Assembly: GCA_001817495.1 (NCBI GenBank)
Contig: MHIL01000023.1
Span: forward strand, 1 to 57,335
DNA length: 57,335 nt
Source: Candidatus Buchananbacteria bacterium RIFCSPHIGHO2_02_FULL_56_16
GTDB taxonomy: Bacteria > Patescibacteriota > Patescibacteriia > Buchananbacterales > UBA6539
Reading direction: 5' to 3'
The notes beneath the pieces were generated by a model, which did not search any database, had not been told where the DNA came from, and worked only from the letters and a program-made list of their open reading frames with translations. Every line of letters starts with the position of its first letter. The first letter of the stretch is position 1. The position numbers and the translations under genes were made by a program. Below, one piece after another: positions 11,212 to 43,562 of this stretch.

Positions 11212-12063
11212 ATGAATCAACCTCGTTTCTATATCCTCTTTCTCCTCCTCGTGGCGTTGTCTGCTGCTGGTCCAGCCGTTGTCTGGGCAGCCGATGGCAG
11301 CTCGGCGCCCAATCTGGCGCCGGAGCTCCAGATCAAGATTGGCGACTTTGGCCAAGCGTCCGATTTTCAGGCCGGCTATGGGGTGGGATCGTGCCCACCC
11401 GAAAAGAGCCAGTATGGGAAATGCCTGGAGGTACCCTGGATCAGCCAGTACATCGGCGCCCTCTACCGCTACGGCGTGGCTTTGGCCGCAGCCTTGGCGA
11501 TGCTGATGATCACCATTGGCGGCGCCATCTGGCTGACCGCCGGCGGCAGTTCAGAACGAGTCTCGACCGCCAAGAGCTTCATCATTTCGGCGATCTCCGG
11601 TCTCATGCTGGCGCTGTTCTCCTACGTTATTCTCTACACCGTCAACCCCCGCCTGGTGGCGCTTGAGCCGTTGAGCGTGCCGGTGGTCAGCGATGTGCCA
11701 GAACCAAAACTAAGTGAAAAAACTACCAGCCAGTACACTCAGGCTAAGTATCACTGCTTATTTAACGGCGAGTGCCTTCAATCGTCAGAGAAGCAGGAAT
11801 GCGAATCCATGGGCGGACAGTTCGTTGACGATAGTAACTACGAGGCGATGTGCGGTATAAGGGAGTCGTGCGCGTGCTACCAATATGAAGTCAATGAAGG
11901 CACTCCTTTAGGCAGGCTGTATACCTGCGGCGAGCATCCTAAAGGCGTGGATTGGTTTCTTTGCAAAGAAAAACCTTTTTCCAAAGTTCGTTGCTTTAAG
12001 CAGCCAGTACTCTGCTCTGATGTTCCTGACACGCGGAATAATATTTACTGGGGTGACCCTTAA
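11212..12063 (+). CDS. T4SS pilin-like (TrbC/VirB2-type) protein with a Cys-rich C-terminal domain
   Basis: It has a signal peptide followed by a two-TM hairpin core (YIGALYRYGVALAAALAMLMITIGGAIWLTAGGSSERVSTAKSFIISAISGLMLALFSYVILYTVNP). The core is nearly identical to that of the next gene. Confidence 0.55.
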   Translation: MNQPRFYILFLLLVALSAAGPAVVWAADGSSAPNLAPELQIKIGDFGQASDFQAGYGVGSCPPEKSQYGKCLEVPWISQYIGALYRYGVALAAALAMLMITIGGAIWLTAGGSSERVSTAKSFIISAISGLMLALFSYVILYTVNPRLVALEPLSVPVVSDVPEPKLSEKTTSQYTQAKYHCLFNGECLQSSEKQECESMGGQFVDDSNYEAMCGIRESCACYQYEVNEGTPLGRLYTCGEHPKGVDWFLCKEKPFSKVRCFKQPVLCSDVPDTRNNIYWGDP

Positions 12064-12067
12064 AACC

Positions 12068-13150
12068 ATGCAAGAAAAATTTTTACCGTTCGTGGGGGTT
12101 GTTACTGTCTTATTCTTTTTATCCCCCGTACTCGTCGGCGCTGCGGACACTCCCCAGCTGAACGTGAAGATTGGTAATACGGGTGCATCGGCGATCTTTA
12201 AGGCCGTCAGCTGCACGGGGGGGTACTGCACCATCGGCTGGATCGGTGACTACATCGGGGCGGTTTACCGCTATGGCGTAGCGTTGGCCGCCGCCCTCGC
12301 GATGCTGATGATCACCATCGGCGGCGCCGTCTGGCTGACCGCCGGCGGCAGCCCCGAGCGGGTCTCGACCGCCAAGAGCTTCATCATCTCGGCGGTGGTG
12401 GGACTGGTGATAGCGCTTTTTTCATACAACATCCTCTACACGGTAAATCCGGCGCTGACCGAGCTTAAGCCGCTGAAGATTCCGGAAGTAGAAAACATCC
12501 GCCTCGCCCAGGCCGGTGACCCGAGCACTGATGCGCTGGTCGGTAAGATTGCGTGTGAGACGTCAACTCGCACCATCTCATATGATTCCGTTGGGTTGCC
12601 GCAGCAAACCCCCGATGTACTGGCTGATGATCTGTCACCGCTGCCAACGCTCGAGGAAACAAATCTTGCGCCGTCTCGGCTGGGAGCGTTAGCGGTTCCT
12701 TCGGGCTGCCGTGATTATAATTTCGATGGCTACGGCGTGGACTCCCGAATTTTGCGGGCGATTGCCTCAACTGAATCTGGTTGTAATCCCAGTGCCCGAG
12801 GTGAAGATGGAGAATGTGGCATGATGCAGATGTTGCCAACGACTGCCGACCGCGATTGTGATTATTTACTTGATCATCCCCAAGAAAGTATTGAACTAGC
12901 CGCTAGGTATATCCAACAGAATGAGGCGTTTCATGAGGGAAACATTTCTCACATTTTGGCTGGCTATAACGGTGGTTACGGCACTACGCCGAGAAATGGT
13001 AAAAGGCCGCCCCTGGCTCCCAGTGTCGATTGTCCTGGCTTCAGAGCTTATGAGTGTTGTATTAATCCTGGTGGTTTAGAAAGCAATCAAGGTTATGTAA
13101 TTCGGGCGATGCGCTACTACCAGGGGGCGCAGGACAACCAGTACCAGTAG
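12068..13150 (+). CDS. T4SS pilin-like core fused to a lytic transglycosylase (SLT, VirB1-like) domain
   Basis: The pilin core is the same as in 11212-12063. The C-terminus carries SLT motifs (IASTESGCNP....GECGMMQM..TTA ... YNGG). I chose the ATG at 12068 to avoid the 44-nt overlap of the ORF-track start. Confidence 0.6.
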   Translation: MQEKFLPFVGVVTVLFFLSPVLVGAADTPQLNVKIGNTGASAIFKAVSCTGGYCTIGWIGDYIGAVYRYGVALAAALAMLMITIGGAVWLTAGGSPERVSTAKSFIISAVVGLVIALFSYNILYTVNPALTELKPLKIPEVENIRLAQAGDPSTDALVGKIACETSTRTISYDSVGLPQQTPDVLADDLSPLPTLEETNLAPSRLGALAVPSGCRDYNFDGYGVDSRILRAIASTESGCNPSARGEDGECGMMQMLPTTADRDCDYLLDHPQESIELAARYIQQNEAFHEGNISHILAGYNGGYGTTPRNGKRPPLAPSVDCPGFRAYECCINPGGLESNQGYVIRAMRYYQGAQDNQYQ

Positions 13151-22363: not shown

Positions 22364-23218
22364 TTGAAAAAAATGGCCCAATCAGCCAAAAAATCAACCA
22401 ACTTAACTATCCTGTCTGATATCTACCAAGAGCAAGAGACCGGATCATCGGCGAACCGCGGCGAGCGGTACCCAGTCAGCGAAAAAATTAAGGCGTATTT
22501 TAACGCCCCCCAAACGGTGGAAAAGTGGTTAGCGGGGGCGGTTTTATTTTTCGGCGCCGCTGGCATCATCTTTGGTTTTAACCACTTTAAAAGTTTGATT
22601 GCCAAACCCTTCGACCGTCCGCTGCCCGAAAGCAACACCAGCTTCGCCGCCGCGACCAACCCTGTTGATCAAGACCTGCTTGGCTTACGCCAGAAAGACA
22701 CGGACCAGGACGGCCTCTCGGACTACGACGAGCTCTACGTCTACCAGACCAGCCCCTTTCTCGAGGATTCAGATTCGGATGGTATAGAGGATCAGAAAGA
22801 AATTGCCAGTAATAGCAACCCCAACTGTCCGAAGGGCGCTGATTGCACCGGCGCCGCGGCCGAACGTACCGTGGCTGAAAATACCGCGCCAGCCGCGGCC
22901 GACCTGGACGCCGGCTCGCTTCGGACATTGCTGCAAAACGCCGGCGTATCAGCTGATGTGCTGAACGCCATCAGCGATGAGGAGCTGCTGCGCACCTACC
23001 TCGAGGTAACCGGCGGTACGGTCGCGAGCTCCACCGCCACCACGGCGGGGCCGGCCCAGCCGGCGGGCAGCTCATCGGCCGCTGACCAGATTAGTCAGCT
23101 TACCCCGGCCCAGCTGCGGCAGCTGCTGCAAGAGCAGGGGATTCCGCCGGAAACGTTGCGTCAAGTGAGCGACGAGGAGCTTCTTAAGCTGGTTTCAGAG
23201 ACGCTTCAGGGTTACTAA
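22364..23218 (+). CDS. Membrane-anchored protein with thrombospondin-type-3 Ca-binding repeats and a duplicated C-terminal helical motif
   Basis: It has a TM segment and DTDQDGLSDYDE...DSDSDGIEDQKE repeats. The motif LR.LLQ..G......L..(I/V)SDEELL occurs twice. The start is TTG at 22364 or ATG at 22373, and the gene ends 6 nt before the giant gene. Confidence 0.6.
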   Translation: MKKMAQSAKKSTNLTILSDIYQEQETGSSANRGERYPVSEKIKAYFNAPQTVEKWLAGAVLFFGAAGIIFGFNHFKSLIAKPFDRPLPESNTSFAAATNPVDQDLLGLRQKDTDQDGLSDYDELYVYQTSPFLEDSDSDGIEDQKEIASNSNPNCPKGADCTGAAAERTVAENTAPAAADLDAGSLRTLLQNAGVSADVLNAISDEELLRTYLEVTGGTVASSTATTAGPAQPAGSSSAADQISQLTPAQLRQLLQEQGIPPETLRQVSDEELLKLVSETLQGY

Positions 23219-23224
23219 ACTACC

Positions 23225-26200
23225 ATGATACACCAAGTACACCAAGACAAGCAGCGCGAGGCAAACCGCAGGAGCCGGCCGGTGGCGAGGTTCATCCTGT
23301 CGGGTTGCATGTTGCTGACGCTGGCGCTGGGCTTGGTCGCGCCGGCAATGCTCTACCCGACCCCGGCGGCCGCGGCCGGCATACCGACCTTTGACGCCGC
23401 GAACCTTCGAGCGTGGTTTAGCCAAATCGGCTATAACTTCGCTGAACAAGCTGAACGTCTAGCACAGCAGATCGAGAAGCGGACGGCGGCGATTGCTTTC
23501 AAATCAGCCTTACATTTATTCCTCAACAACCTTGCTTACGATTCGGCGACCTGGCTGGCCGCCGGCGGCAAGGGCCAGACCCCGTACTTTCATACTGATA
23601 GCTGGGGAGCGTACCTGACCAAGGCCGCTGACGGCGCGGCCGGTGATTTTATCAGCAAACTCGGTGAATCGTGGCTTGACGGCTTCAACGTCTGCCAGCC
23701 GGATCTGCCGTTTCGGATTAACGTGGCTCAAGGGTTTCAAGACAATTTTATCCGTCGCCAGCCCGACTGTACCGCCAGCGAACTGGCCCGAGACTGGGAG
23801 CGCTTCGTCCAGCGCGACGACTTTCTTAGCCAGTTCGTCAAGCAATTCAATTCGCAGCAGAACGAGGTTCTCATCGGCTTGACGCTTTGGGACAAGTACT
23901 ATCAAGCCCTCTCGTTTGAAACCAAGACTAAAGAGCAGGATCGAATCGAAGGCCAGGGTTTCCAGCCGGTTACGTCGGCGATATCCGGCAAGATTCTTAC
24001 CCCCGCCAGCCTGACCAAAGCCCAGGCGGATGCCTTGATTAACAATCAGGCCGACGCCGAGAAAATCAGCACCGGCGACATCGTGGCTGACGCCATCAGC
24101 ACGTTTATTAATACCTTAGCCGGCAAGCTGTTTCAGCGGCTGTTCAAGGAAGGACTGGCGAGCCTGCGGGATGATGATGATGCTCGGCGAAGTTTCATTA
24201 GCCGTGATCTCTATACCGGTGAGAGCGGCCGCGACCTGTTCACCGGCCGGCAGGCGGCCGAGGCGCGCTACGTAACGCTGGTTGACGCCGGCATCATTAC
24301 CGGCGGGCCGTACGAACTTTTGCAGCAGCTCGCCACCTGCCGGGATTTGAGCAACCCGGGCCCGGAAGAGTGCGTCATTGACCAAAATTTTCGTTTGGCG
24401 ATTGAGCAAGAGATGACGGTTCGGGAGGCGATTGACGCCGGCTACCTGGACGGCAGCGCGCCGTTCGGCTTTATTTCCCCGGGGGTTGCGCCGCCCTACG
24501 CCGGGGACAAGAAGGGCTACCCCTACCGCAGCCTGCTGATTCTGCGGGCCCACCGGATCATCCCGGTTACTTGGGAGGTGGCCGCTAAAATTATTGATGA
24601 GGGATTTACCGGCAGCGACCGGGTCGTGACGCTGAATGCCTTGATTGCCGAGTATGATAACTCGGACAGCCCCTTCTACCGCCTGATTGACCAATACTGG
24701 GTGCTGAAAGCGCCGGAAGCGTTCTGCAAGGCGGAAGGCTACGGGCCGGTCATCATCAGCGATCAGGTCAGCAACGACGGCCAGCGGATCGTGACGCGCA
24801 GCCAGTACTGCGCCGACTACCAGTCGTGCATTGAGAAAGACAGCAAGGGCAAGTGCATCTACGGCTACTGCACCGAGGAACAGCCAACCTGGAACCTCCA
24901 GGCCGAGAGCTGCCTGCCCGAGTACAGCACCTGCCAGACTTTCGTGAACGGCGGCGGCCAGACGGTTTCCTACCTCCAGAATACCCTTAACTACAACAGC
25001 TGCAGCGCGGACAACGCCGGCTGCCAGTGGTACTGCCAGTCGTACAATGTTCCGAGCGCCACCTGGGCTTGCGTTAATGCCGGCGAGCAGGTGCTGAAAC
25101 CGTGCGCCGCGCCCAGCGGCTGCCCGCTCAACGCCGGCTGCAGCATCGCTGAAGCCGGGACATTCTGCACCGACGCGGTCAGTGGCGCGAACCTGACCAT
25201 CAGCACCGCCTGCAGCCCCAGCACCCAGTGGTGGCAAGCCGATCTCTTCGGAACGGGTGTCGGCGGCTGCCAGGCCGGCGCCAGCTGCACCGTCGAGTAC
25301 CAGGGAGTTCAGTGCGTCCAGACCGGCTGCGAGAGCCGCCAGAACCTGCTGCCCAACCCCGGCTTTGAAACCGCCGCCCCGGCCGGCACCCTGGCCGCGA
25401 AGTGGGGCGGGGATCCGGCCTACTTCGAACGGGTGAGCGGCGGGCAGGAGCGGATCCACCGCGGCCGCAGCAGCGTGCGCTTCTACAATGCCGGCAGTAT
25501 GGCCGGCGTAACGATGCGGTCCGATGAGCTGACCGTACCCCGCGCCGGCGCCTACACCGTGAGCGGCTACGTCTTTGACCGGCTGAATGTCGGGTCAATC
25601 TCGTTCAGCGTTTTGGTAAACGGCGGCGCCGTGGCTGACCCGCCGGTCATGCTGACCCAAACCGCCAAGAATCGCTGGTACCAGGTGAGCTTTGATACGC
25701 CGGCGCTGAACGCGAACGACAGGATCAAGATCGTGGTAATCGTCGCCGGCGAGCAGGTCAGCGGCCTGGCCTGGTTCGACGACTTCAGCCTGACCGAGAG
25801 CTGCCTGGTCAATCCGGTGACCCTGACGCTGGCCGGCGCCATCGCCGAAGATGAGAGCAAGATCCACTTCGACCGCGACGCGAAGCAGTGCAGCGCCGAA
25901 GCTGACGGCTGCTCCCAGTTCTACGCTTCGCCGACCCGGCGGATCAGCAACCTCCTGTTTAGCGTTACCGACCCGAGCTTTGAGCTGTACCAAGACAGTA
26001 CCACCCAGCCCGGGGATCAGGATTTCAAGAACTGGACTGCCGTCAGAGCCGTTGTTAAAGCCAGCAGCGATGCTCACAGCGGCGGAGCCGCGATGCAGCT
26101 GCGAGACGACAGTGGCGGCGCCGAAACCTATGTTTCGCTCACGTTTGATACGGGCGAGCCGCTCAACGAGCGGATGTTCATTGTTTCCTACTACGCGAAA

Positions 26201-29200
26201 ACGGTCAACGCTGATGACTTTCAATGTAACGGCAGCGATGAAAATATAGTCCCGCCAAATCTTCGAGGGGGCTGCCATGAGTGGGACAAGAATTACGCTA
26301 ACTTTGTCCGATCGCCTGACGCCGTCGGCGGCAACATCATGATCAACGGTATCAGTTCAGTTGGGCTCAACGACCAGTGGCAGCGGTTCTCGGCGGTCCT
26401 CGCCATCAACGATCCCGTGTTCGACGCCGCTAAAAAACTGGAAATTATTTTGTACACTATTACTCAAGGTACCGGCTCGATCCTCTACGATGACATCCAG
26501 CTCGAGGAGGTTACCGGCAGCGTCCGGACTGAAGCGGTGCCGTTCCAAGGCTACACCACGCTGACGGAAACCCACCTGCGCAAGGCGCCGGACTACCTTG
26601 GCTGCCAGGGCTTCAGCCTGGAACGGCCCAGCGACTATGTGCTCAACGGCGTGACCGAAGCCAGCTGTATCGGTGACACTCTGGTTTGGCGGCCGGAGAG
26701 CTGCGTTGGCGGCTTCTGCTGCCGCCAGATAGACCCGCCCGAGTGCGCCGGCTACGCCCCGTACTGCCAGGCCGACGAGATCGGCTGCCAGTCGTTTACG
26801 CCGCTCCAGGGCGGGCTGCCCGTTCCCGGTGTCGCCGCTGCCGACGACTACTGCGGCGCTGAATGCGTGGGCTACGACGCGTTCAAGCAGGCGCCGACCT
26901 ACTTTGAGCGGACCCAGTCCATCGAATTCTTCATCCCCAAGACCGCGGAACAGTGCAGCCTGGCCCAGGCCGGCTGCGACGAGTTCACCAACCTCGACGA
27001 GGCAGGGGCCGGCGGCGAAGATCGCGAGTACTACCAGTACCTGCGCCAGTGCACCAAACCCGGCGCGGCCGGGGTGAGCTGCGGCACCTTCTACAGCTGG
27101 CAGGGTTCGGACGACAGCGGCTATCAGCTCTCAACCTACAGTTTAAAGACCGCCGGTGCCAGCCCCAACGAGGTCATCGAGTACAATCCGGCCAGCCCCG
27201 ACGAGGTCGCCTACCCTGACGCCTGGTGCGACAACAAATCCGACGGTGATGGCGACGGTTCACCAGACTGCTGCGACGCCTCTGAAGACTTAACCCAGAA
27301 CCCGTTCTGCCGGGAATTCTTCGACCGCGACGGAGGCGTTCACTACGTCCTGGAACAAAACACGATCACCTGTTCAGATGATTGCCACCCCTACCGAAAG
27401 ACCCGCCTCGGAGAAACCGATGCCGAAGCCCAGGCGAACTGTTCGGCCTCGAACCCGGCCTACACGGGAGCGGCACTGAATCCCGGCTGGCAGGACAACG
27501 CCTGCGTCTACTACGCCATCCCCGATCAGGGTGTCGCCTGCCCGGCCCAAGCCGCGGGCTGCCGCGAGTACCGCGGCAACGCCGGCGGCAACGTCTTCAC
27601 CGCGTTTTACGACAGCTTTGAAGACGGCGACAGCCTCGGCTGGCAGACCGGTCAGATGAGCAGCCTGGCGCTCTCGGTCGGCGGCCACTCGATCAAGAGC
27701 CAGTCGGGCACGCTCCAGACCATGGCCGCCTCGATGGGCGCGGCAACCTGCGACGCTGCCCTGACGGTCTGCGACGGAGCAACGTATCCCTGCTACCAAG
27801 CGGCGACGAACACCTGCCTCGCCCAAGAGCCAACCGGCCAGACCTGCGAGGTCGCGCTTGGGACGACTGATTGCGGCGTGTTTGATGCCGCTTTCGCGAG
27901 CGGCCGTGACTACCTGCTCACCTTCTGGGCCCGGAGCGAATCGGGCAATACGCCGGTTACCATGCAGCTTACCGACAGCGCTGGGGCGACGACAATTGCC
28001 CAAGTCGCGCTGACCGCGAACTGGCAGTACTACACGTTCGGGCCGATCCGCTACGACTGGCCGCGCGGCACCAAGCTGGTTGCCCGGAACGCGAATAGCA
28101 AGGACTTCTTCTTCGACAACGTTACCTTCAAGGAGATTACCGGCTACGTCTACGCCATTAAAAATTCCTGGCAGACGCCAACGAGCTGCGACACCAACCC
28201 GTTCGTCAGCCCGGCGGTGCCCGCGCCGCAGTTTATGCTCGGCTGCCAGCAGTACCGGGATTCCAGTAACCAAATCCACAACCTCAAGTCGTTTTCCAGC
28301 CTCTGCCGCGAAGACGCGGTCGGCTGCGAAGCGCTGCTCGACACCTTTAACTCGGACGACCCGTTCGCGAGTGAGTTTAACACCGCCGACGCCGCCGGCA
28401 CGGTGACGGTACCCCAGGATCGGGTGGTTACCATGGTCAACAGCGCCGAGTTCCGCTGCGACTCGACCCAGGAAGGCTGCCAGCGCCTCGGCCGGCCCAG
28501 CCTCGACCAGAGCGGCGCGGTGGCCGGCTACACCGATGCGTACGTCTTGAACGATCCGGATCAGTACCCAACCACGCTCTGCGGCAGCGGCGAAGTGGGC
28601 TGCGCCGAGTTTCAGACCAACCATGGCTTCTTCTACTTCAAAGCGCCCGGGCTGCAGACCTGCGAGTACCGGCAGATTCCCAACCAGCCGGGCGGCTTTG
28701 GCTGGTTTAAGATCGGTTCCGCCTCGGCCACGCCGGACTGCCCGATTACCCGCTCGCCTTTGGGTATCGTCCACCCGGCGACCGGCTGGACCGGGCTGTG
28801 TCCGGCCGGCGCGGCCAGCTGCACCGAGTTCATTGATCCGGTGAGTAACAATGCGAAGAACTTGATTTTTAACGTGGACTTTAAGCAGGATCTCGACCTT
28901 AACGGCAAACCCGACGGCTGGAGCAGTTTGCTCAGCGCGCTGGAGCAAACGATCACCCTGACGCGCAACACCCTCTACACCGTGGCGATCAGCTCGAACG
29001 GCACCGCGCTGGACAGTTCCGATCTTGAGGTACAGATTACCGGCTGCCCGGGTATCACTTCACCCGACCACTCAATGGTCAGCGCCGGCACGGACGCGCT
29101 CCAGCTGCCGGTCTCCGACTTCAAGGGCGACCGGCTGCGCCGGCCCGACCTGCCGGATGAACGGCAGTACTCGGCCCGGTTCTTCGTGCCGGCGGCGGGC

Positions 29201-32200
29201 GGCGGCACCTGTACGCTGCGGCTCAACCCGGGCGGCGCCTCCTCAATCACCAGCCTCTTGCAGGCGGTGGCCGTACGCGAGAGCGGGGTGGACTACGTGC
29301 TCGCAAGCGACGTTAACAAGACCGGCTGCAACGGCATCGTCAACGAGCTCAACGGCTGCGTCTTGTTTAACGACCGCAGCGGTGTCAACTACAAGATCGG
29401 AGAGACCGACAACTCGTACCTCCGCTTCGACGCCGACATGAGCCGGCCGGGCGTCAACAGCAGCGTGCCGGTGGCAAACTGCGGCGGCGCCTGCGACAGC
29501 AGCACCATTTTGAAGGTTCGTCCGGACCGAACCTGCGGCCAGTGGCTCGACTGCCAGACCAAGGTTAAGTCGGTTGACGCGAGCGGCAACGAGGTTACCT
29601 ACTGCGTCGAGCTCGCGGCTTGCGATGAATTGAACGAGTCCGGCGAGTGCACGAACTTCATCTTATCCGACCGCCAGAAGGTTAACGGCTCGAATGACAA
29701 CACCACGGTTGAGTTCCTTAACCACGATAAAATTGCCTACCTCTCGGGCTACGCCAAAGCCGGTTCAACCCTTGCCGACGCAACGGGTGCGCAGGGGGTG
29801 ATACCCGGCGCGGCGTTTGATGCCGCTAACACCTTCAACGGCTACTACCCGTTCAACCTGATGAGCCAGTTCGGCGAGGTGGCGAAGGTGCCGAACGGCA
29901 GCTTTGAGGACTACCCCGAGGTCGAGTACCCGGTTGGTTGGGCCTGGCAGAACGGCGACGGCCGGCGCTGGGGCAGCCACCTCTTCCGGGTGATCTCGAG
30001 CGTGGTTGAGGCCCAGGACAACGAGGGCATCACGCTGCAGGGCCGGGCGTCGCTTAAGCTGAATGCAGACAACGTCGTCATTTCTGATCCGATTTCAGTT
30101 TTACCCAATACCGACTATACCTTGAGCGCCAGTATTAATACGTTAAACCTTCAGCCGACTGAAGCCGAGGCGATTGTTGATCTGGTTGACGCTTCGGGTA
30201 ACCAGCTCGCCCCGCCCGTCGAGCTCCGGCTCAAAGCGCGGCTGGACTGGACCAGCCTTTCGGTGATCGTTAACCGTACCGCCATTACCGGTACCGAAGT
30301 CAGGGTTCGCCTCCGCAACTTCCATCCCAATACCGCACTGATTGCCGAGTCTTCCTACTTTGATAACATCCAGATGCTGCCTACCCTCGAGGTTCAGGCG
30401 CTGCCGCCGTACACCGGCGAGAAGAATTACGTCAGCCGCTCCTGCCGCGTCTTCCCCCAGCAGGACTCGCTGGCCTGCAGCTACCGCGATACGGCCGGCG
30501 CCATCCAGCAGGGCTGGTCCGGCTACTGTTTGGAGCCAGACCCCCAGCGGTCCGGCGTCTGCCTCCAGTGGTGGCCGGTTGACCTGATCAAGGGCGACGC
30601 CTTCGGCACCTACATTGGCTACAACGGCCGGCTGCCGCTCTACTACTGCATGGAGACGAGCATGTCCACGACGCGGATAGAGTTCCTTAAAGAAGGAGAT
30701 ATGACGATCAGTGGTGACTATAATGACGTAACACCAGAGATTGATAAGAACAATTTGGATAAAGATAAATGTATTACGTATAAGAAGCCAAATGGCGGAA
30801 AACTTGAATTTCCCGATGGGTCGAGCGTTACGTTAACCGGCGGAAATAGATGCGGGTCCGACTGGGTGGTCGGCGTCTGTAAGTATGAGGGAGAAAAAAC
30901 CGCTGATATTGATATTTTTCATAAGAACCTCATTGACCGGATTAGGGTCTTTAGCCTTGCAGATGATGGTGACGTTGCCCACAGCATGGAGGGCTGGCTT
31001 GGTTACTGCTTTAACATGTCCGTGGAGGGTAAGGTCGAGTTTTTTGATGTTGAAGCAACTCCTAAATTTGGAGGTACGGTGCCAGTTACCGCCAGTCCAA
31101 ACCAAACTTGGCTCGCGGCCACTAACGGCAAGGTTTGCTCATACGGGGGTAAAGCAATTTTTGACAAGGAAGGATTACTGGATCAGATGTGGTTTTGGAT
31201 CGCCGATCAATCTAGTAAGTGCACCCATAACTTCGAGTGGCAAATTGGGGTTGATGTTCATCTGAATCGGAACTATTGTACGCTGCTGGCTCAAACCGTG
31301 ACGCCTGTCGGTGAGAACAAAGCCTGGGTGTCACGGGTGGCAGAAGGCAGCTCGTACGACGACCTCGAGTGCACGGTTAATGGCACGAAGCCGCTCTTCT
31401 CGATTAACGGTGCCTGCGCGCCGGGAGTTGACTGCGTGTTCGTCAATAGCGAAAAGACGTACCGTTGCGATACCGATGCGAACTTTGACGGTGTACCGGA
31501 TGGAGCACGCTGCAGCGTCTGCGAGTACAACACCGACTACGCGCCGTTCGGCGCCGCGGTACCCGAGGATCCCTACAATATTACCAACTCGGACAAGCTC
31601 TACTGGCAATTGCCGGACACGGAAAACTTTGAGCCGCCCTACCAGGCGCGTATGGGCCAGGTGCCCTACACCTATGGCACGGCGCCCAGCGCCTACAGCA
31701 CCTACCTCAAGCGCCTGTTCGCCCAGAGCTTCAGCTTCTGGAAATGGCAAGAGATTGGGGATCTGGTTTGCCTAGGCGGAACTAATGACGGAAAGGTCTG
31801 CACTGATAGCAGCCCGCAATGTCCCCAAGGTTCATGCATTGATCGTGGCACCCTTTGTCAAGGTAATACCTCAACGCGAGGGGCGGAGTGCAACGTGGCA
31901 GCGTGTGGTTTTGATAGCGGTGGTGTGAGTATCCCCTGCATAGAAGTTAATGACCTAAGTGAGTGCGAGGGTAGTGCCTGTGATAAAGTTTTCGCTTGTG
32001 ACTTCAACGCTAACGGCAGTTGGGATGTTGGCACAGATAAGCGCTGTTGTCCCGTGTCTGTTGCCGGTGGTCCGGATCCAACTTGTGAACAGAAGTATAG
32101 CTGTTCAGATGATAGTTTGAATGCGGGGCAAGAGTGTACGTTCAATGCTGATGAGTGTCCGGGTGGCACCTGCGCGCAGCAGCGTCAGGGTTTCCAGCCG

Positions 32201-33133
32201 GACTTAAGAGTCACTTGTCCAGCAGGAATTCTCTGCTTGCAGGTCACAGGAACTGATGAGTTCCGCTGCGGCGGCACTTCCGGCGGCGCGCTTTGCAGCC
32301 CTTTCCGCTGGAGTCCGCCTGACCGGTTGTGTGAGACGCTGACTGGTCTGAATGACAATAGCCGGCCGACAACGTTGAATTTCAGTACCGATGCCGACTA
32401 CTGCGCCATCGCGCCGCTGGTTAAAAACATCCTGATTAACGGCCAGAACGGAACCGCTGCGCCGCTCAAAATTATTAACCAGCGCGGTTCCGGCTCGGCG
32501 ACCCTGCTGTTTAACGCGGTGCTTGACGGCAACCAGCTGCCGCTGACCGCCTACCAGGTTGACTGGGGCGATGGCTCCAAGGTGGCGGTGTCCGGCACCA
32601 ACCTGCGCGACCGCTCGAACACCGTGGCGCCTTACAAGCTGACCCACTCCTACAGCTACTACGAAATTTTATCCCAGAATCAGAGCGGCGACCGGATCTA
32701 CTGTTCGGCCGTGCTTGGCGATGTGCCAGCTGGGGTGCTGCCTAAAGGCTTTTGCTCCGGCGGTCCAACGCCCGGCGCCAGCTGCGAGAATTCGACGCAG
32801 TGTTCGCCGGGCGGCGTCTGTAACCTCACTTGGTGCGCGGTCAAGCCGCGGATTCAGATTCAGGACAACTGGGGCTGGTGCAACGGCAGCATTGATCCGG
32901 GCAGCGGCGTGCTCCTGGGGCCGCAGTGGGGCTATCGCGTCGGCAGCGGAGCGCCCAACTGCAGCAGCGACGGCAGCGGCGTCTGTGCCGGAGGTACCGC
33001 GCCCGGTAGTGCATGTACGACGGTAGCGCCGTGCGCTGGCGGCGGGGTCTGCCAGCTCGATAACGCTGACGCCTGGACGACGTTTGGCGGTGCGAGCGCG
33101 AGCGGCTACGTCATTGTCGGGATCAACGATTAG
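23225..33133 (+). CDS. Giant (3302 aa) Cys-rich extracellular protein with an N-terminal signal-anchor; putative adhesin or pilus-tip protein
   Basis: It is a single uninterrupted ORF with genome-typical codon bias. It has an N-terminal TM segment, several jelly-roll/CBM-like domain starts (NLLPNPGFE, VPNGSFEDY), a PKD-like YQVDWGDGS motif, a recurrent GC-x-(E/Q)-(F/Y) motif and C-terminal C-x-GG-x-PG-x-C knots. Confidence 0.85.
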   Translation: MIHQVHQDKQREANRRSRPVARFILSGCMLLTLALGLVAPAMLYPTPAAAAGIPTFDAANLRAWFSQIGYNFAEQAERLAQQIEKRTAAIAFKSALHLFLNNLAYDSATWLAAGGKGQTPYFHTDSWGAYLTKAADGAAGDFISKLGESWLDGFNVCQPDLPFRINVAQGFQDNFIRRQPDCTASELARDWERFVQRDDFLSQFVKQFNSQQNEVLIGLTLWDKYYQALSFETKTKEQDRIEGQGFQPVTSAISGKILTPASLTKAQADALINNQADAEKISTGDIVADAISTFINTLAGKLFQRLFKEGLASLRDDDDARRSFISRDLYTGESGRDLFTGRQAAEARYVTLVDAGIITGGPYELLQQLATCRDLSNPGPEECVIDQNFRLAIEQEMTVREAIDAGYLDGSAPFGFISPGVAPPYAGDKKGYPYRSLLILRAHRIIPVTWEVAAKIIDEGFTGSDRVVTLNALIAEYDNSDSPFYRLIDQYWVLKAPEAFCKAEGYGPVIISDQVSNDGQRIVTRSQYCADYQSCIEKDSKGKCIYGYCTEEQPTWNLQAESCLPEYSTCQTFVNGGGQTVSYLQNTLNYNSCSADNAGCQWYCQSYNVPSATWACVNAGEQVLKPCAAPSGCPLNAGCSIAEAGTFCTDAVSGANLTISTACSPSTQWWQADLFGTGVGGCQAGASCTVEYQGVQCVQTGCESRQNLLPNPGFETAAPAGTLAAKWGGDPAYFERVSGGQERIHRGRSSVRFYNAGSMAGVTMRSDELTVPRAGAYTVSGYVFDRLNVGSISFSVLVNGGAVADPPVMLTQTAKNRWYQVSFDTPALNANDRIKIVVIVAGEQVSGLAWFDDFSLTESCLVNPVTLTLAGAIAEDESKIHFDRDAKQCSAEADGCSQFYASPTRRISNLLFSVTDPSFELYQDSTTQPGDQDFKNWTAVRAVVKASSDAHSGGAAMQLRDDSGGAETYVSLTFDTGEPLNERMFIVSYYAKTVNADDFQCNGSDENIVPPNLRGGCHEWDKNYANFVRSPDAVGGNIMINGISSVGLNDQWQRFSAVLAINDPVFDAAKKLEIILYTITQGTGSILYDDIQLEEVTGSVRTEAVPFQGYTTLTETHLRKAPDYLGCQGFSLERPSDYVLNGVTEASCIGDTLVWRPESCVGGFCCRQIDPPECAGYAPYCQADEIGCQSFTPLQGGLPVPGVAAADDYCGAECVGYDAFKQAPTYFERTQSIEFFIPKTAEQCSLAQAGCDEFTNLDEAGAGGEDREYYQYLRQCTKPGAAGVSCGTFYSWQGSDDSGYQLSTYSLKTAGASPNEVIEYNPASPDEVAYPDAWCDNKSDGDGDGSPDCCDASEDLTQNPFCREFFDRDGGVHYVLEQNTITCSDDCHPYRKTRLGETDAEAQANCSASNPAYTGAALNPGWQDNACVYYAIPDQGVACPAQAAGCREYRGNAGGNVFTAFYDSFEDGDSLGWQTGQMSSLALSVGGHSIKSQSGTLQTMAASMGAATCDAALTVCDGATYPCYQAATNTCLAQEPTGQTCEVALGTTDCGVFDAAFASGRDYLLTFWARSESGNTPVTMQLTDSAGATTIAQVALTANWQYYTFGPIRYDWPRGTKLVARNANSKDFFFDNVTFKEITGYVYAIKNSWQTPTSCDTNPFVSPAVPAPQFMLGCQQYRDSSNQIHNLKSFSSLCREDAVGCEALLDTFNSDDPFASEFNTADAAGTVTVPQDRVVTMVNSAEFRCDSTQEGCQRLGRPSLDQSGAVAGYTDAYVLNDPDQYPTTLCGSGEVGCAEFQTNHGFFYFKAPGLQTCEYRQIPNQPGGFGWFKIGSASATPDCPITRSPLGIVHPATGWTGLCPAGAASCTEFIDPVSNNAKNLIFNVDFKQDLDLNGKPDGWSSLLSALEQTITLTRNTLYTVAISSNGTALDSSDLEVQITGCPGITSPDHSMVSAGTDALQLPVSDFKGDRLRRPDLPDERQYSARFFVPAAGGGTCTLRLNPGGASSITSLLQAVAVRESGVDYVLASDVNKTGCNGIVNELNGCVLFNDRSGVNYKIGETDNSYLRFDADMSRPGVNSSVPVANCGGACDSSTILKVRPDRTCGQWLDCQTKVKSVDASGNEVTYCVELAACDELNESGECTNFILSDRQKVNGSNDNTTVEFLNHDKIAYLSGYAKAGSTLADATGAQGVIPGAAFDAANTFNGYYPFNLMSQFGEVAKVPNGSFEDYPEVEYPVGWAWQNGDGRRWGSHLFRVISSVVEAQDNEGITLQGRASLKLNADNVVISDPISVLPNTDYTLSASINTLNLQPTEAEAIVDLVDASGNQLAPPVELRLKARLDWTSLSVIVNRTAITGTEVRVRLRNFHPNTALIAESSYFDNIQMLPTLEVQALPPYTGEKNYVSRSCRVFPQQDSLACSYRDTAGAIQQGWSGYCLEPDPQRSGVCLQWWPVDLIKGDAFGTYIGYNGRLPLYYCMETSMSTTRIEFLKEGDMTISGDYNDVTPEIDKNNLDKDKCITYKKPNGGKLEFPDGSSVTLTGGNRCGSDWVVGVCKYEGEKTADIDIFHKNLIDRIRVFSLADDGDVAHSMEGWLGYCFNMSVEGKVEFFDVEATPKFGGTVPVTASPNQTWLAATNGKVCSYGGKAIFDKEGLLDQMWFWIADQSSKCTHNFEWQIGVDVHLNRNYCTLLAQTVTPVGENKAWVSRVAEGSSYDDLECTVNGTKPLFSINGACAPGVDCVFVNSEKTYRCDTDANFDGVPDGARCSVCEYNTDYAPFGAAVPEDPYNITNSDKLYWQLPDTENFEPPYQARMGQVPYTYGTAPSAYSTYLKRLFAQSFSFWKWQEIGDLVCLGGTNDGKVCTDSSPQCPQGSCIDRGTLCQGNTSTRGAECNVAACGFDSGGVSIPCIEVNDLSECEGSACDKVFACDFNANGSWDVGTDKRCCPVSVAGGPDPTCEQKYSCSDDSLNAGQECTFNADECPGGTCAQQRQGFQPDLRVTCPAGILCLQVTGTDEFRCGGTSGGALCSPFRWSPPDRLCETLTGLNDNSRPTTLNFSTDADYCAIAPLVKNILINGQNGTAAPLKIINQRGSGSATLLFNAVLDGNQLPLTAYQVDWGDGSKVAVSGTNLRDRSNTVAPYKLTHSYSYYEILSQNQSGDRIYCSAVLGDVPAGVLPKGFCSGGPTPGASCENSTQCSPGGVCNLTWCAVKPRIQIQDNWGWCNGSIDPGSGVLLGPQWGYRVGSGAPNCSSDGSGVCAGGTAPGSACTTVAPCAGGGVCQLDNADAWTTFGGASASGYVIVGIND

Positions 33134-33678: not shown

Positions 33679-36600
33679 ATGAAAACGTGGAGGAACATCC
33701 TGAATCGGCGAACGGTCCTGACGGCGCTGTGTCTTTTCGCGCTTGCCGTTACCGTTTTTACCGTTGCCGTATCCGCGCCACTCGTATTGGCTCAAGAAGA
33801 GCCGCCCCGCCCAACGAGCGACTACGAGCAAGACGATCTTGGGCCGTTAGAGGCCGGGTCCTCCGGCGCTTTCAATACACGGCCAACACCTGTCAAAAAG
33901 GCCGAGGCAGAAGAATCAAATGTCTTTCTCTCAACCTTCGTAAATCTACTGGTCGGAGGATTGGCCAGGATCGTCATCTGGCTCGAGGGGTTTGTCATAA
34001 CTGCTCTGATCGCGATCTTGCTCCTCGTGGTTAAGTATAACAGCTTCGCGACCGCTGGGGCGGTCAGCAACGGCTGGACCTTGGTCCGTGACGTTGCCAA
34101 CCTGTTCTTCGTGGTCGTGCTGCTGGGTATCGCGCTGGCCACGATCCTGCGGGTTGAATCCTACAACTTCAAGAAGCTGCTGCCCAAGCTGATCCTGATG
34201 GCGATTCTGGTCAACTTCAGCAAGGTCATCGCCGGCCTGATCATTGACTTCGCCCAGGTGGTGATGCTCACCTTCGTCGCCGCCTTCGCCGGCGTTTCCG
34301 GCGCCGGCAACATGGTAACTACCCTGCAGATCCAGTCAATTATTACCTACAACTGGTCCAACGCCGCGGAGGCGAGCGCGGCAAACTTCACGGGTACGGC
34401 GCTGCTGATGGCGATCATGCTGCTGATTACCATTGGGGTCCTGCTGGTGATGCTCGTCGTGCTGGTGATGCGCATCGTGATGCTCTGGGTGCTGGTGGTG
34501 CTCTCGCCGCTGGCCTACATCATGGCCGCGTTTCCCCAGGGGCAGCGCTACGCCCAGCAGTGGTGGCAGGAGTTCACCAAGTACGTGATTGTCGGCCCGG
34601 TGCTCGGATTCTTCCTCTGGCTGACCTTCGCCGTCGCCAGCGCCGGGGACATTGCCCAAAAAGAGTTTGGCAGCCAGAAAGGCTTAGCCGCTGCCGGCGC
34701 CGGTGACGCGTTGAGCGCGAAGCTTGCCAAGCAGGCCGGAGTTCAAACGAAAATCGGCCAAACCGACCATCTGCTGTCGTTTATCATCGCCATTGCCATG
34801 CTGATGGGGTCCTTGGTCATTACCCAGCAGATCGGCGTGGCCGGCAGCCAGTTCGCGGGGTCGATGTTTAATAAGATTCGCCAAACCGGGCTCAAGGCGC
34901 TCCTGGCGCCGGGCAGGGCGGTGGGCTGGACCGCGAAGACCGCGGCCAAGGCGCCGTTTCAATTTGTCGGCCGCAAGGTCAATGAGGCAATCGGTGAAGG
35001 CAAATTGCCGGCCTGGGCGAGTCCGGCCGGGATGGTTCGCGGGTGGGGTGCACGGCGGGCAGAATTGTATGATGTATCAAAACGTAAAGCTGCCGCTGCT
35101 GGCCATGAAAAATGGGAACAGCTTTTTACCGGAACATCGTTGCCTCGGGTATCACAAATTGAATTAGCGGAAGAATCTAAGTTCGCTAAAGATTTTGCGG
35201 ACGTATACGATAAAGAACAAATGGCAGCAGAGTGGGTTGGATTAAGGAACGCGCCGCAATCGGCGGAAATTAGGGCTAAAAAAAGAGGCTTGATCAAGGC
35301 TGGCGGCGTAGCGGGTTTTTTGGATGATATAATGGCTCATCCGGAAACGAAAGCACATACTCGCAATTACATCAAGAATTTGTATAAAACGACCAAGGAT
35401 GATCAACTAAAAGCGGCTATGGATGAAAAGGATGAGAAAACCGGCTTAAGTCTAATGGATAATGTAAACGATGATAAGGGTGCATGGTACAACTGGCAAA
35501 CACTCCATTTCTTTTTGCAAGAGTCTCTCGGGAGCGATCAGGCCGGGATGACGACGATGCAAACCCTTGAAGATATTGGCAAAAAAAATGGTCATCCAGA
35601 ATACGGTGGCCATGATACCTATCGATCATCACTCGAAGGCGGCCACGACGAGATGGAAATGGAAAGGATTTATGATCAAAAAGACGCTGCCGGTAAAATT
35701 ATTAGAAAATCTGGTCAAAAACGCATGCAGACTGAACTTTCTAAAATGCAGGGTCGCAGCAGGCTTGGTTTAGCGCCGCATGCATTTATGGCAATGAATA
35801 ATGATGGTACCTACGCTATGGGAATGCCAGAGCGGTTGGCGGCGACAGCTATGTTCGGCGCCCAGGGCGCAAGAATTTTTGAGCACTCTCAAAAGCGAGA
35901 TTGGACCATGGCTATGGGTGGCAGCCCAGATGAAGTGAACTGGGTCGAAGGTCAGGAAACAGAAGTTGCGAATTTTGATAAACCAGATGCATCACTGCGA
36001 AACATAATCAACCACGCCAAAGGTTTTGCTTTTCTTATGCAAAGTGCTGCTAATCCACGAGAGCCAGTCGACGTAATTGTTAAAACGGCGTGGAAAACAA
36101 CTGGTGGAAAAGGTGAGCCCCAGTTTCAGGTTAATGGAAAGGTCTATGGCGCTGATGAATTCTTAAGCGAGTTTGGAGAACAGGCACACGCAACGCCGTC
36201 GCCCGCGCCTACGCCTGGTTCAGCCCCAGCGCCCGGCCCCAGCGCCCCGATGGCTGATATTGACATCGCTAAGCACGAGCGAACCAAGCAGGCGATTGAC
36301 GCCTTTAGCGCTCAAACTGGTTTATCAGCGGCTGATTTTTACCAGTCTCGGTCGTACAAGGCTGATCAGTATACTGCCCAAGGAGATTTTGAGCGTAACG
36401 AGCAGCTGATGGGTGGCTGGCGGCAAGAAATTGGCCGTATCAGGCCGGACGTTGATCAGGCTAACCCCGAGGCGGTCGAGCAGGCGATTCGTGAAGAGCA
36501 GGGTAAAGTTCGGGGTGTGAAGTCGGCTAGCGGCAAAGGTGAAGGTGAGCAGGCCGGCGTTGGGCTTGACTTCTCCGATAAAGACGTCCAGCGCATCTTT

Positions 36601-43094: not shown

Positions 43095-43562
43095 ATGCAG
43101 CAATTCGTCGTCCCCCAATTCATTGACGTTGAAGATAAAATCATCGGTCCGATCACCGTTCGGCAATTTTTGATTTTGCTGGCCGGCGCCGGGGTGTCCT
43201 TTGTCGCCTACAAGCTCTCCGACCTCACCCTCTTTGTCTTTGAGTTCGCGGTCATCTCGCTCATCTTCTTCACCTTCGCGTTCATCAAAATTAACGGCAA
43301 GCCGATTCACTATCTCTTCCTTAACCTCATTCAAACTTCTCGTCGCGCCCGCTTGCGGGTGTGGAAGAAAAAAGTTTTTCATAAGGCCGAGCTGCATAAG
43401 TTGAGTAAAGAAAAAAAAGCCGAGCTGCCGGTGGTGGTTATCGCCAAAAATAAGGTCAAGGCTTCGCGGCTGGCCGAGCTGTCGCTGATCGTTGACACGG
43501 GCGGCATCTACCAGGGCGAGGCGCTCCCGCTGGCTAAGGGCGGCAAGGAGCAGCTGTTATGA
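43095..43562 (+). CDS. PrgI-family (VirB3-like) small T4SS membrane protein
   Basis: It has the N-terminal VPQFIDVEDKIIGPITVRQF motif followed by two TM helices. Its stop overlaps the next start (ATGA). Confidence 0.65.
   Translation: MQQFVVPQFIDVEDKIIGPITVRQFLILLAGAGVSFVAYKLSDLTLFVFEFAVISLIFFTFAFIKINGKPIHYLFLNLIQTSRRARLRVWKKKVFHKAELHKLSKEKKAELPVVVIAKNKVKASRLAELSLIVDTGGIYQGEALPLAKGGKEQLL

What the first reader, a model, noticed from the sequence alone, without database searches (positions are those of the whole stretch)
23372..23504. The giant protein's N-terminus resembles the TrbJ/VirB5 (minor pilin, pilus tip) N-terminal motif
Right after the signal-anchor the protein reads AAAGIPTFDAANLRAWFSQIGYNFAEQAERLAQQIEK. 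From memory, TrbJ/VirB5-family proteins start after signal cleavage with a (I/V)-(P/V)-x-F/I-D-x-x-N-L-x-Q-type motif followed by a helical LEQ..NQI segment. If this is real homology, the giant protein would be a VirB5-like pilus-tip adhesin expanded about tenfold. That would physically link it to the T4SS-like machinery. This is a short-motif resemblance recalled from memory, not a search result.
Basis: inference. Interest (0 to 1): 0.6.

Follow-up and report, generated by a model that had tools for sequence, protein, structure and literature searches.

The report
VirB5-like head on a giant protein
A 3302-residue secreted protein of an ultra-small groundwater bacterium starts, after its export signal, with the same short sequence that marks the tip protein (VirB5) of bacterial conjugation pili, and its gene sits where the VirB5 gene normally sits, so it may be the missing tip or adhesin of this group's secretion machine.

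Summary
Residues 49-86 of the 3302-aa ORF (23225-33133) read AAAGIPTFDAANLRAW…QQIEK. Cleavage after the invariant Ala50 would leave A-G-I-P-T-F-D, the same register as R388 TrwJ/VirB5 (Q-G-I-P-V-F-D).

Relatives of the giant protein carry both known VirB5 N-terminal variants (GxPV[F/I]DAAN and IPVTVTSDIP, up to 11/12 identical). This is far more than background sequence gives.

A VirB5 HMM built here ranks this protein first in its own genome (E 1e-4), but the match covers only about 40 residues. Pfam PF07996 and NCBIfam find nothing, profile-profile probabilities stay at or below 30%, and AlphaFold models give no VirB5 fold match. So aa 1-330 is not a demonstrable VirB5 domain.

Context adds support. 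The genome's only VirB6/TrbL gene lies directly downstream, as in 30 of 37 relatives. In other Patescibacteria classes the same N-terminal domain is a stand-alone 270-350-aa secreted protein inside the operon ksgA–TSP3–X–VirB6–x–PrgI–x–VirB4. That is VirB5's size and position.

Verdict: partly supported. This is probably the Patescibacterial counterpart of VirB5, enlarged into a giant adhesin in one class. No VirB5 is described for these systems.

The parts
23225..23374 (+). Sec-type signal peptide, aa 1-50: basic n-region, hydrophobic core, A48-A49-A50 cleavage site.
   Evidence: Translation. Ala50 is invariant in 77 aligned relatives.
23375..23407 (+). Predicted mature N-terminus A-G-I-P-T-F-D-A-A-N-L (aa 51-61). 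This is the VirB5/TrwJ-type signature, in the same register as TrwJ Q-G-I-P-V-F-D.
23396..23563 (+). Predicted helix-turn-helix (aa 58-82 and 86-113), followed by the conserved AYD..W.ASGGKGQxP loop.
   Evidence: AF2 secondary structure, family consensus, and a weak colinear match to the VirB5 TGxRGxG loop.
23375..24259 (+). Helical N-domain, aa 51-345. It is homologous to stand-alone 270-350-aa proteins found in T4SS operons of other Patescibacteria classes.
   Evidence: hhalign A6 against A3: probability 99.6%, E 6.5e-25. Genome-search results.
24272..24859 (+). Second, alpha/beta subdomain, aa 350-545 (GYPYRSL.ILR..RIIPV.WE, LIDPNWVLKAP). Very well conserved, with no known fold match.
   Evidence: pLDDT mostly 85-98. 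No Foldseek hit.
24860..33133 (+). About 2750-aa Cys-rich extracellular remainder of the giant protein. Relatives carry CBM_4_9-type modules.
   Evidence: Precomputed PF02018 in most relatives.
22364..23218 (+). 284-aa membrane protein with bacterial TSP3 repeats. It is the conserved upstream partner and ends 6 nt before the giant gene.
   Evidence: The same gene lies upstream of the small homologues.
33679..38430 (+). Extended VirB6/TrbL-like polytopic membrane protein, 1583 aa, with the TrbL region at 34117-34641. It is the only VirB6 in the genome.
   Evidence: PF04610 at 28.2 bits, over the cut-off.. Adjacent in 30 of 37 relatives.
38457..39707 (+). 416-aa conserved protein that follows VirB6 in all the operons examined.
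43095..43562 (+). PrgI/VirB3-like protein.
   Evidence: PF12666, E 2.4e-9.
44239..46158 (+). VirB4-type ATPase, the only one in the genome.
   Evidence: PF19044, E 2e-28. Single hit in the genome.
11212..13150 (+). Two VirB2-like T4SS pilin genes (PF18895), the second fused to an SLT lytic transglycosylase. A DsbA-like gene (10435-11202) precedes them.

Best explanation
The giant protein is exported by Sec. Signal peptidase most likely cuts after Ala50, which exposes A-G-I-P-T-F-D-A-A-N-L. That is the N-terminal signature of VirB5/TrwJ-type T4SS tip proteins. A helix-rich domain of about 300 aa follows.

This N-domain is a family of its own. In several other Patescibacteria classes it is a stand-alone 270-350-aa secreted protein. 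There it is encoded between a TSP3-repeat protein and VirB6, ahead of PrgI/VirB3 and VirB4. That is VirB5's place and roughly its size. In the window's class the same domain heads a 2000-4300-aa Cys-rich protein with carbohydrate-binding-type modules.

I therefore read the N-domain as the Patescibacterial counterpart of VirB5. It would assemble on the VirB6 platform and cap whatever fibre the VirB2-like pilins build. Its N-terminal peptide and helix would form the distal apex, as in the TrwJ pentamer. The giant C-terminal part would then be the host-surface-binding payload carried at that tip.

Shown here:
- The motif, its register and its enrichment in the family.
- Homology of the N-domain to the small operon-encoded proteins.
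- The gene order, and that the genome has a single VirB6 and a single VirB4.

Inferred, not shown:
- Cleavage after Ala50.
- Oligomerisation and contact with VirB6 or the pilins.
- Tip location and an adhesin role.
For: Motif and register:
-.
- Both VirB5 variants occur in the giant family. L055 LPVTVTSDIPGT matches VirB5 VPVTVTSDIPGT at 11/12. L049 GAPVFDAANFGQ matches GYPVFDASNFGQ at 10/12.
- Strict motif in 67 of 275 segments against 9.1 expected, and next to the AxA site in 56 of 67.
- Ala(-1) is invariant.

HMM and profile searches:
- A VirB5 HMM built from 118 VirB5 sequences (TrwJ homologues plus TraC) ranks the giant protein first among 1762 ORFs of its genome. E is 1.1e-4, the next hit is 0.054, and the match covers aa 46-84.
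- The same HMM ranks giant-family N-termini first, second and third among 1618 ORFs of related loci.
- hhalign including the signal peptide gives P 5.6e-4; reversed controls give 0.4-0.5.

Context:
- The only TrbL/VirB6 hit in the genome is the next gene (28.2 bits, over the cut-off).
- The only VirB4 lies 11 kb downstream.
- A VirB6-like gene follows directly on the same strand in 30 of 37 relatives.
- The four-gene block TSP3, giant, VirB6 and a protein of about 430 aa is conserved in a relative with a 32% identical N-terminal region.

Small homologues:
- Five were examined (270, 280, 278, 344 and 548 aa).
- Four sit in ksgA–TSP3–X–VirB6–x–PrgI–x–VirB4; the 548-aa one has the same order, but its TSP3 and VirB6 neighbours were not scanned.
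- Their mature starts are QWAVED, IFGIGD, IPVTIDLP and ATWLTID, with the Asp invariant.
- They are homologous to the giant N-domain at 99.6% probability.

Literature:
- VirB5 sits as a pentamer on VirB6 with its N-terminal part projecting at the apex (PMC9259494).
- No VirB5 is reported for the native (monoderm-type) T4SS of Patescibacteria (PMC12102498, PMC12857230, PMC12624023).
Against: - No hit to Pfam PF07996, whether in the protein, the first 400 aa or the whole genome at E up to 10. No NCBIfam VirB5/TrbJ hit.
- Tool hhalign of the N-domain profiles against a 60-sequence VirB5 profile gives P 0.006 to 0.17 and probability 6% or less.
- The bare 18-aa motif HMM is not significant. A chance 13-bit hit occurs inside a leuS-like ORF.
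- AF2 models of aa 1-545 and aa 47-345 are of low confidence in the helical part (pLDDT 46-85). Foldseek against the PDB gives nothing at E of 0.001 or lower and no VirB5-family chain.
- In R388 the contacts with VirB6 come from the C-terminal tail of VirB5 (aa 207-228), not from the N-terminal motif. No such tail was recognised here.
- Only about a quarter of the family keeps the strict motif.
- Sequences within the family are related, so the enrichment counts are not independent events.
Confidence: 0.55

Rival explanations
1. The protein belongs to the T4SS gene set, for example as a wall-spanning scaffold or an adhesin working with the extended VirB6, but it is not a VirB5 equivalent. The N-terminal xIPVxD peptide would be a convergent short motif, for instance a strand that docks into a partner after signal cleavage. 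It would say nothing about a pilus-tip role.
For: - Similarity to VirB5 is confined to about 40 residues.
- No fold or family hit.
- The VirB6-binding tail of VirB5 is absent.
- The strict motif is kept in only 24% of relatives.
Against: - Both VirB5 variants, including an 11/12-identical 12-mer, occur at the same position relative to cleavage.
- The stand-alone homologues have VirB5's size and gene position in five operons.
- No other VirB5 candidate exists in the genome.
Confidence: 0.27
2. The resemblance is chance. The giant protein is a general surface or host-attachment protein of CPR bacteria, of the kind reported for Vampirococcus. It would lie next to T4SS genes only through conserved chromosomal synteny with leuS, sua5 and ksgA.
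For: - The motif is short, and the 18-aa HMM alone gives E = 2.
- Housekeeping genes interleave the cluster in the window.
- Giant surface proteins are common in CPR bacteria (PMC8080830).
Against: - Family-level enrichment of about 90-fold over background and placement next to the cleavage site.
- Rank 1 in the whole-genome HMM search.
- VirB6 adjacency in 30 of 37 genomes.
- Small homologues embedded in contiguous T4SS operons.
Confidence: 0.1
3. The N-terminal hydrophobic segment is an uncleaved signal anchor. The N-domain would then be a membrane-proximal stalk that holds the giant protein on the cell, with the motif lying at the membrane surface.
For: AF2 models aa 18-43 as one long helix.
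Against: A small residue at -1 (Ala50) is invariant and the P-x-P-A-x-A c-region is conserved in 77 sequences. The motif follows it at a fixed distance, as in cleaved VirB5 proteins.
Confidence: 0.08

Closest known systems
VirB5 / TrwJ / TraC / TrbJ minor pilins of Gram-negative T4SS (Pfam PF07996; structures 1R8I, 7O3V/8RT9)
   Same: - Sec signal peptide.
- Mature N-terminus x-G-I-P-(V/T)-F-D in the same register, followed by a Q/E-rich helix.
- Both N-terminal variants are shared.
- The gene lies directly upstream of virB6.
- The system also has VirB2-like pilins, VirB3/PrgI and VirB4.
   Different: - 3302 aa against about 230 aa.
- No PF07996 or NCBIfam hit and no detectable helical-bundle fold match.
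- No recognisable VirB6-binding C-terminal tail.
- The host is a monoderm Patescibacterium whose T4SS is of the Gram-positive (MPF-FATA) type.
F-plasmid TraH, recently proposed as the F system's VirB5 (HInt preprint, bioRxiv 10.64898/2026.07.31.741991)
   Same: A pilus-tip protein that escapes sequence and fold searches. Only an N-terminal helix-loop-helix resembles VirB5, and it pairs with the VirB6 homologue (TraG).
   Different: TraH is a periplasmic or pilus protein of a diderm system, and its tip location has been shown experimentally. Here nothing has been tested experimentally, and the N-terminal peptide itself is much closer to canonical VirB5.
Patescibacteria T4SS as described by Quiñonero-Coronel et al. 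2025 (PMC12102498) and Wang et al. 2023
   Same: The same gene set in the window: VirB4, PrgI/VirB3, VirB6 and PF18895 VirB2-like pilins. There is no relaxase in the window.
   Different: Those studies report no VirB5 in the native Patescibacteria-clade T4SS and no adhesin. They do not describe the N-domain family or its giant form.
Enlarged T4SS core components and T4SS adhesins (extended VirB6 proteins, CagY, PrgB of pCF10)
   Same: Precedent for core T4SS proteins that carry very large extracellular extensions, and for large surface adhesins that serve mating or host contact.
   Different: None of them has a VirB5-type N-terminus. PrgB is LPXTG-anchored and unrelated in sequence.

Membership tests
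VirB5/TrbJ (Pfam PF07996, T4SS minor pilin) | Significant match to the family HMM (PF07996, or NCBIfam VirB5/TrbJ models). | tested here: not met
   No hit at E up to 1 for aa 1-400 or for the whole protein. No hit at E up to 10 in the whole genome in six frames. A custom HMM matches aa 46-84 only.
VirB5/TrbJ (Pfam PF07996, T4SS minor pilin) | Cleavable signal peptide followed at once by the conserved (Q/A)-G-I-P-V-x-D N-terminus and an amphipathic helix. | tested here: met
   AAA|AGIPTFDAANL... against TrwJ VMA|QGIPVFDGTR.... Family-level enrichment. Cleavage itself is inferred.
VirB5/TrbJ (Pfam PF07996, T4SS minor pilin) | Elongated three-helix bundle with a globular appendage (TraC 1R8I; TrwJ in 7O3V/8RT9). 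| tested here: inconclusive
   AF2 predicts long helices for aa 58-308, but pLDDT is 46-85. Foldseek against the PDB gives no hit at E of 0.001 or lower and no VirB5-family chain.
VirB5/TrbJ (Pfam PF07996, T4SS minor pilin) | Gene located in a T4SS locus next to virB6. | tested here: met
   VirB6/TrbL is the next gene. The same holds in 30 of 37 relatives. Small homologues lie upstream of VirB6, directly or one gene removed, in compact operons.
VirB5/TrbJ (Pfam PF07996, T4SS minor pilin) | Size of about 220-250 aa. | tested here: not met
   3302 aa. Stand-alone homologues of the N-domain are 270-350 aa.
VirB5/TrbJ (Pfam PF07996, T4SS minor pilin) | C-terminal tail that binds VirB6; a pentamer at the stalk or pilus tip. 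| not testable with these tools
   The R388 contacts map to TrwJ aa 207-228. No multimer prediction or experiment is available here.
Giant N-domain family of Patescibacteria (no Pfam model) | Conserved N-terminal region of about 500 aa (AYD..W.ASGGKGQ, two invariant Cys, GYPYRSL.ILR, LIDPNWVLKAP). | tested here: met
   1281 cluster representatives at E of 0.001 or lower. 110 of 121 genomes of the class. Alignments A1 and A2.
TrbL/VirB6 (PF04610), for the downstream neighbour | Match to PF04610 over its cut-off in a polytopic membrane protein. | tested here: met
   28.2 bits against a cut-off of 25.9 on the genomic stretch 34117-34641. 25.6 bits on the excised region, and 6 of 22 relatives hit. 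The orthologue in L106 scores 35 bits.

The most novel reading that the evidence does not exclude
The N-domain family is the so far missing VirB5 of the Patescibacteria T4SS, which is monoderm-type but carries pilins. In one whole class (91% of sampled genomes, single copy) the pilus or stalk tip has been fused to an adhesin of about 3000 aa with CBM-like modules. That would make this single gene the likely determinant of which host cell these episymbionts attach to and tap.
Probability: 0.45. Interest if true: 0.8.

Novelty: new variant of a known kind. Interest (0 to 1): 0.68.

Why it matters
The T4SS of Patescibacteria is essential for their host-dependent life (Wang et al. 2023, as cited in PMC12857230). 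It is unusual in combining Gram-positive-type core parts with VirB2-like pilins. Whether it builds a pilus, and what sits at the end of it, is open. The papers I read report no VirB5 or adhesin for it.

A protein with a VirB5-type N-terminus, VirB5's gene position and, in some classes, VirB5's size gives a concrete candidate for that tip. In one class the candidate is a 1%-of-genome giant with carbohydrate-binding-type modules. This makes host recognition directly testable by localisation, binding assays and co-variation with host range.

It would also be, with F-plasmid TraH, another case in which VirB5 function persists although family and fold searches fail.

Tried and rejected
- Pfam and NCBIfam scans of aa 1-400 and of the whole protein gave no VirB5/TrbJ hit. 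PF07996 against the whole genome gave nothing at E up to 10.
- A profile of the N-terminal 545 aa against all PDB sequences returned only a chance histone hit at E 0.9.
- hhalign of the N-domain profiles against a VirB5 profile gave only weak local matches at the motif and at a Gly-rich loop (SGGKGQxP against TGxRGxG). P was 0.006 to 0.17, which is not evidence of domain homology.
- An 18-aa mature-motif HMM is not discriminating on its own.
- I tested whether the 791-aa protein between the small N-domain gene and VirB6 in L105 matches the rest of the giant, which would suggest a gene fusion. BLASTP found no significant similarity.
- A word-based homologue search with the small protein P0334 found only 4 relatives, too few for a deeper profile.
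- hhalign of the VirB6-like region against the single TrwI sequence gave only P 0.019 over the conserved motif. The VirB6 assignment rests on Pfam.
Full report
**The sequence.** The window holds one uninterrupted ORF at 23225-33133 (+) of 3302 aa. The stated coordinates 23372-23504 cover residues 50-93.

**Is the remembered VirB5 motif real?** I fetched real VirB5 proteins from laboratory conjugative plasmids.
- R388 TrwJ begins MKKLVMTAAVAAILGAASPVMA|QGIPVFDGTRALDFVQQFARMKEQLDTAKDQL.
- R46/pKM101 TraC begins ...[32 protein letters not shown].
- A search with TrwJ returned 120 proteins, TrwJ included, all carrying PF07996.
- An alignment of 60 VirB5 sequences (59 of these plus TraC) has the consensus ...AGIPVxD.........Q......QL.....QL.Q....Y.S.TG.RG.G.
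- Two N-terminal variants are visible: GIP(V/T)(F/I)D(A/G)(A/S)N... and (Q)IPVTVTSD(V/I)PG....

With cleavage after Ala50 the giant protein would start A-G-I-P-T-F-D. TrwJ starts Q-G-I-P-V-F-D, so the register is identical.

**More than chance?** The protein belongs to a large family.
- 1281 cluster representatives at 50% identity match its first 540 aa.
- Nearly all are 2400-3800 aa long.
- Record titles name Buchanan-, Uhr-, Kerfeld-, Magasanik-, Komeili- and Falkowbacteria.

The strongly conserved part starts near aa 72-90, just after the motif. Even so, the stretch between signal peptide and conserved domain carries VirB5-type N-termini in many members:
- L047: AQGFPVIDAANLAK.
- L049: AQGAPVFDAANFGQ.
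- P0015: GIPVFDEGS.
- L055, L061, L068 and L072: AQ(L/I)PVTVTSDIP.

I compared every 12-mer of 275 such N-terminal segments (27,952 aa) with the mature N-terminal 12-mers of the VirB5 set.
- 13 segments reach at least 8/12 identity.
- 6 reach at least 9/12, with a maximum of 11/12.
- All ORFs of at least 80 aa in the window's own genome (399,050 aa) give two 8/12 matches and nothing higher.

A strict pattern (hydrophobic-P-[VTI]-x(1-4)-[DN]) occurs in 67 of 275 segments against 9.1 expected from shuffles. In 56 of the 67 it lies within six residues of an AxA site. The -1 alanine is invariant in a 77-sequence alignment.

Family members are related, so these are not 13 independent events. The two motif variants do occur in different branches of the family.

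**The window's protein alone.** A VirB5 HMM built here from 118 VirB5 sequences (the TrwJ homologues plus TraC) puts the giant protein first among 1762 ORFs of its genome.
- The N-terminal HMM gives E 1.1e-4; the next hit is 0.054.
- The aligned part is aa 46-84 only.
- Without the cleavage-site residues a 40-position HMM still ranks it first, at E 0.009.
- The 18-position motif alone is not significant, and it also finds a chance hit inside a leuS-like ORF of a related locus.
- Among 1618 ORFs of the related loci the three best hits are again giant-family N-termini.

**Tests for a VirB5 domain.** These fail or are inconclusive.
- Pfam and NCBIfam find no VirB5/TrbJ family in aa 1-400 or in the whole protein.
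- PF07996 finds nothing in the genome in six frames at E up to 10.
- A profile of the N-terminal 545 aa finds no PDB sequence.
- hhalign gives P 5.6e-4 (probability 30%) over 72 columns when signal peptides are included, and P 0.0027 for aa 50-135. Reversed controls give 0.4-0.5.
- The tool's own profile-profile runs give P 0.006 and 0.17. Their best local match is a Gly-rich loop: AGGKGQTPYFHTDSWGAYL against TrwJ TGGRGLGDLMRNAQLREYLP. It is colinear with the motif but weak.
- AlphaFold2 with 77 sequences predicts a helix-turn-helix (aa 58-82 and 86-113) and further long helices up to about aa 308, at pLDDT 46-85.
- It also predicts a confident alpha/beta subdomain at aa 350-545 (pLDDT mostly 85-98). 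A second model of aa 47-345 is weaker.
- Foldseek against the PDB finds nothing at E of 0.001 or lower for either model and lists no VirB5, TraC, CagL or TrwJ chain.

The first ~330 residues therefore cannot be filed as a VirB5 domain.

**Genomic context in the window.** The window carries the genome's whole T4SS set.
- Two VirB2-like pilin genes (PF18895), one fused to an SLT domain, preceded by a DsbA-like gene.
- PrgI/VirB3 and a VirB4-type ATPase. The VirB4 is the only one in the genome.
- A 1583-aa protein directly after the giant gene. Its membrane part is the only TrbL/VirB6 match in the genome, at 28.2 bits, over Pfam's cut-off.

The giant gene starts 6 nt after a 284-aa TSP3-repeat membrane protein. 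The VirB6-like gene is followed by a 416-aa protein.

A relative whose N-terminal 540 aa are 32% identical has the same order: leuS, sua5, ksgA, TSP3 protein, giant, VirB6-like, then a protein of about 440 aa. Each protein of that four-gene block (TSP3 protein, giant, VirB6-like, ~440-aa protein) is recognisably homologous to its window counterpart.

In 37 relatives' genomes with a VirB6-like hit, that gene lies directly downstream on the same strand in 30.

**Distribution, and the key extra finding.** A model of the N-terminal 545 aa hits 110 of 121 evenly drawn genomes of the window's class (104 of 113 genera). The hit is usually one copy, in ORFs of 2000-4300 aa.

Outside the class, the helical-domain model (aa 47-345) hits 13 of about 284 genomes. 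There the ORFs are mostly 274-367 aa.

I looked at five of these small homologues:
- **G065:** ksgA, TSP3 protein, a 270-aa protein, a 324-aa protein, TrbL/VirB6 (35 bits), a 386-aa protein, PrgI, a 249-aa protein, VirB4.
- **G051, G150 and G226:** the same order, with 280-, 278- and 344-aa proteins.
- **G199:** the same order, with a 548-aa protein; its TSP3 and VirB6 neighbours were not scanned.

Their predicted mature starts are AEA|QWAVEDIL, AQA|IFGIGD, ADA|IPVTIDLPRD and AHA|ATWLTIDLD. The -1 Ala and the Asp are invariant among them. They are homologous to the giant's helical N-domain (hhalign probability 99.6%, E 6.5e-25, 197 columns). Their best local match to the VirB5 profile is again the cleavage site plus IPVxD (P 0.016).

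The N-domain is thus an independent module. In compact Patescibacterial T4SS operons it has roughly the size of VirB5 and sits upstream of VirB6. In the window's class it has acquired about 2700 further residues.

**What is known.**
- In the R388 structure a VirB5 pentamer sits on a VirB6 pentamer. [quoted passage not shown] VirB2 is proposed to polymerise beneath it (PMC9259494, PMC12624023).
- The co-evolving and contacting VirB5 residues at the VirB6 interface are in the C-terminal tail (aa 207-228), not the N-terminal motif. So the shared motif would speak for apex formation or oligomerisation rather than VirB6 docking.
- A 2026 preprint reports that F-plasmid TraH is the F system's VirB5. 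[quoted passage not shown] That is a precedent for a VirB5 function that family and fold searches cannot see.
- The survey of 3,035 Patescibacteria genomes found VirB4, TrsD, PrgI/VirB3, VirB6 and VirB2-like pilins.
- It found no VirB5 in the native system and no adhesin (PMC12102498).
- Reviews list no VirB5 for Gram-positive systems and ask whether the Patescibacterial T4SS builds a pilus (PMC12857230 and PMC12624023).

**Reading.** The most likely explanation (about 0.55) is that the N-domain is the Patescibacterial counterpart of VirB5 and the giant protein is that counterpart fused to a host-binding extension.
- It stays open whether the shared N-terminal peptide reflects common descent with the rest diverged beyond recognition, or convergence on the same structural role.
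- The main rival (about 0.27) keeps the T4SS link but denies VirB5 equivalence.
- Pure chance (about 0.1) is hard to reconcile with the family-level enrichment and the operon position.
- An uncleaved anchor (about 0.08) fits poorly with the invariant AxA site.

Everything beyond sequence and gene order is inferred: cleavage, oligomer state, contacts and location.

Noticed in passing
window 22364-23218, 23225-33133, 33679-38430, 38457-39707; L083 9151-24257: A four-gene block (TSP3-repeat membrane protein, giant protein, extended VirB6-like protein, protein of about 430 aa) keeps its order in a distant relative whose giant protein is 32% identical over its N-terminal region. It also keeps its flanking leuS, sua5 and ksgA. 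ksgA precedes the TSP3 gene in every compact T4SS operon examined.
   Followed up: partly
window 24272-24859 (aa 350-545): The second subdomain of the conserved N-terminal region is predicted with very high confidence (pLDDT mostly 85-98). It has no Foldseek match in the PDB and no Pfam family. It is missing from the small stand-alone homologues.
   Followed up: partly
window 23561-23620 (aa 113-132): The near-invariant loop ASGGKGQxPxFxTxxWGxYL aligns weakly, and colinearly with the N-terminal motif, to the VirB5 loop TGxRGxGxxxxNPxLxxYLP. P is 0.006 to 0.17, which is not significant on its own.
   Followed up: yes
class-level genome search: The giant gene is close to a single-copy core gene of its class: 110 of 121 genomes and 104 of 113 genera, with genomes of about 1 Mb. 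About 1% of each genome is therefore spent on it. One genome (G265) has two copies in inverted orientation about 50 kb apart.
   Followed up: partly
L001, L007, L008, L012, L017, L019, L025 and others (record titles): Many contigs carrying this Patescibacteria-specific gene are deposited under titles such as 'uncultured Gammaproteobacteria bacterium', 'Zixiibacteriota' or 'Pirellulales'. These are probably generic labels or binning contamination.
   Followed up: no
window 33679-38430: The VirB6-like protein has a hydrophilic extension of about 1200 aa after its membrane domain. Relatives' versions range from about 650 to 2100 aa, so this part is highly variable, as in 'extended VirB6' proteins.
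   Followed up: no
window 10435-11202: A DsbA-like thioredoxin gene heads the pilin genes. This fits the very high cysteine content of the giant protein's extracellular part and of one pilin's outer domain.
   Followed up: no
L106 9071-10045: In G065 a 324-aa low-complexity protein ending in a Cys-rich hydrophobic segment lies between the small N-domain gene and VirB6. The genome search read through two TAA codons here, so the two ORFs may once have been one gene.
   Followed up: no
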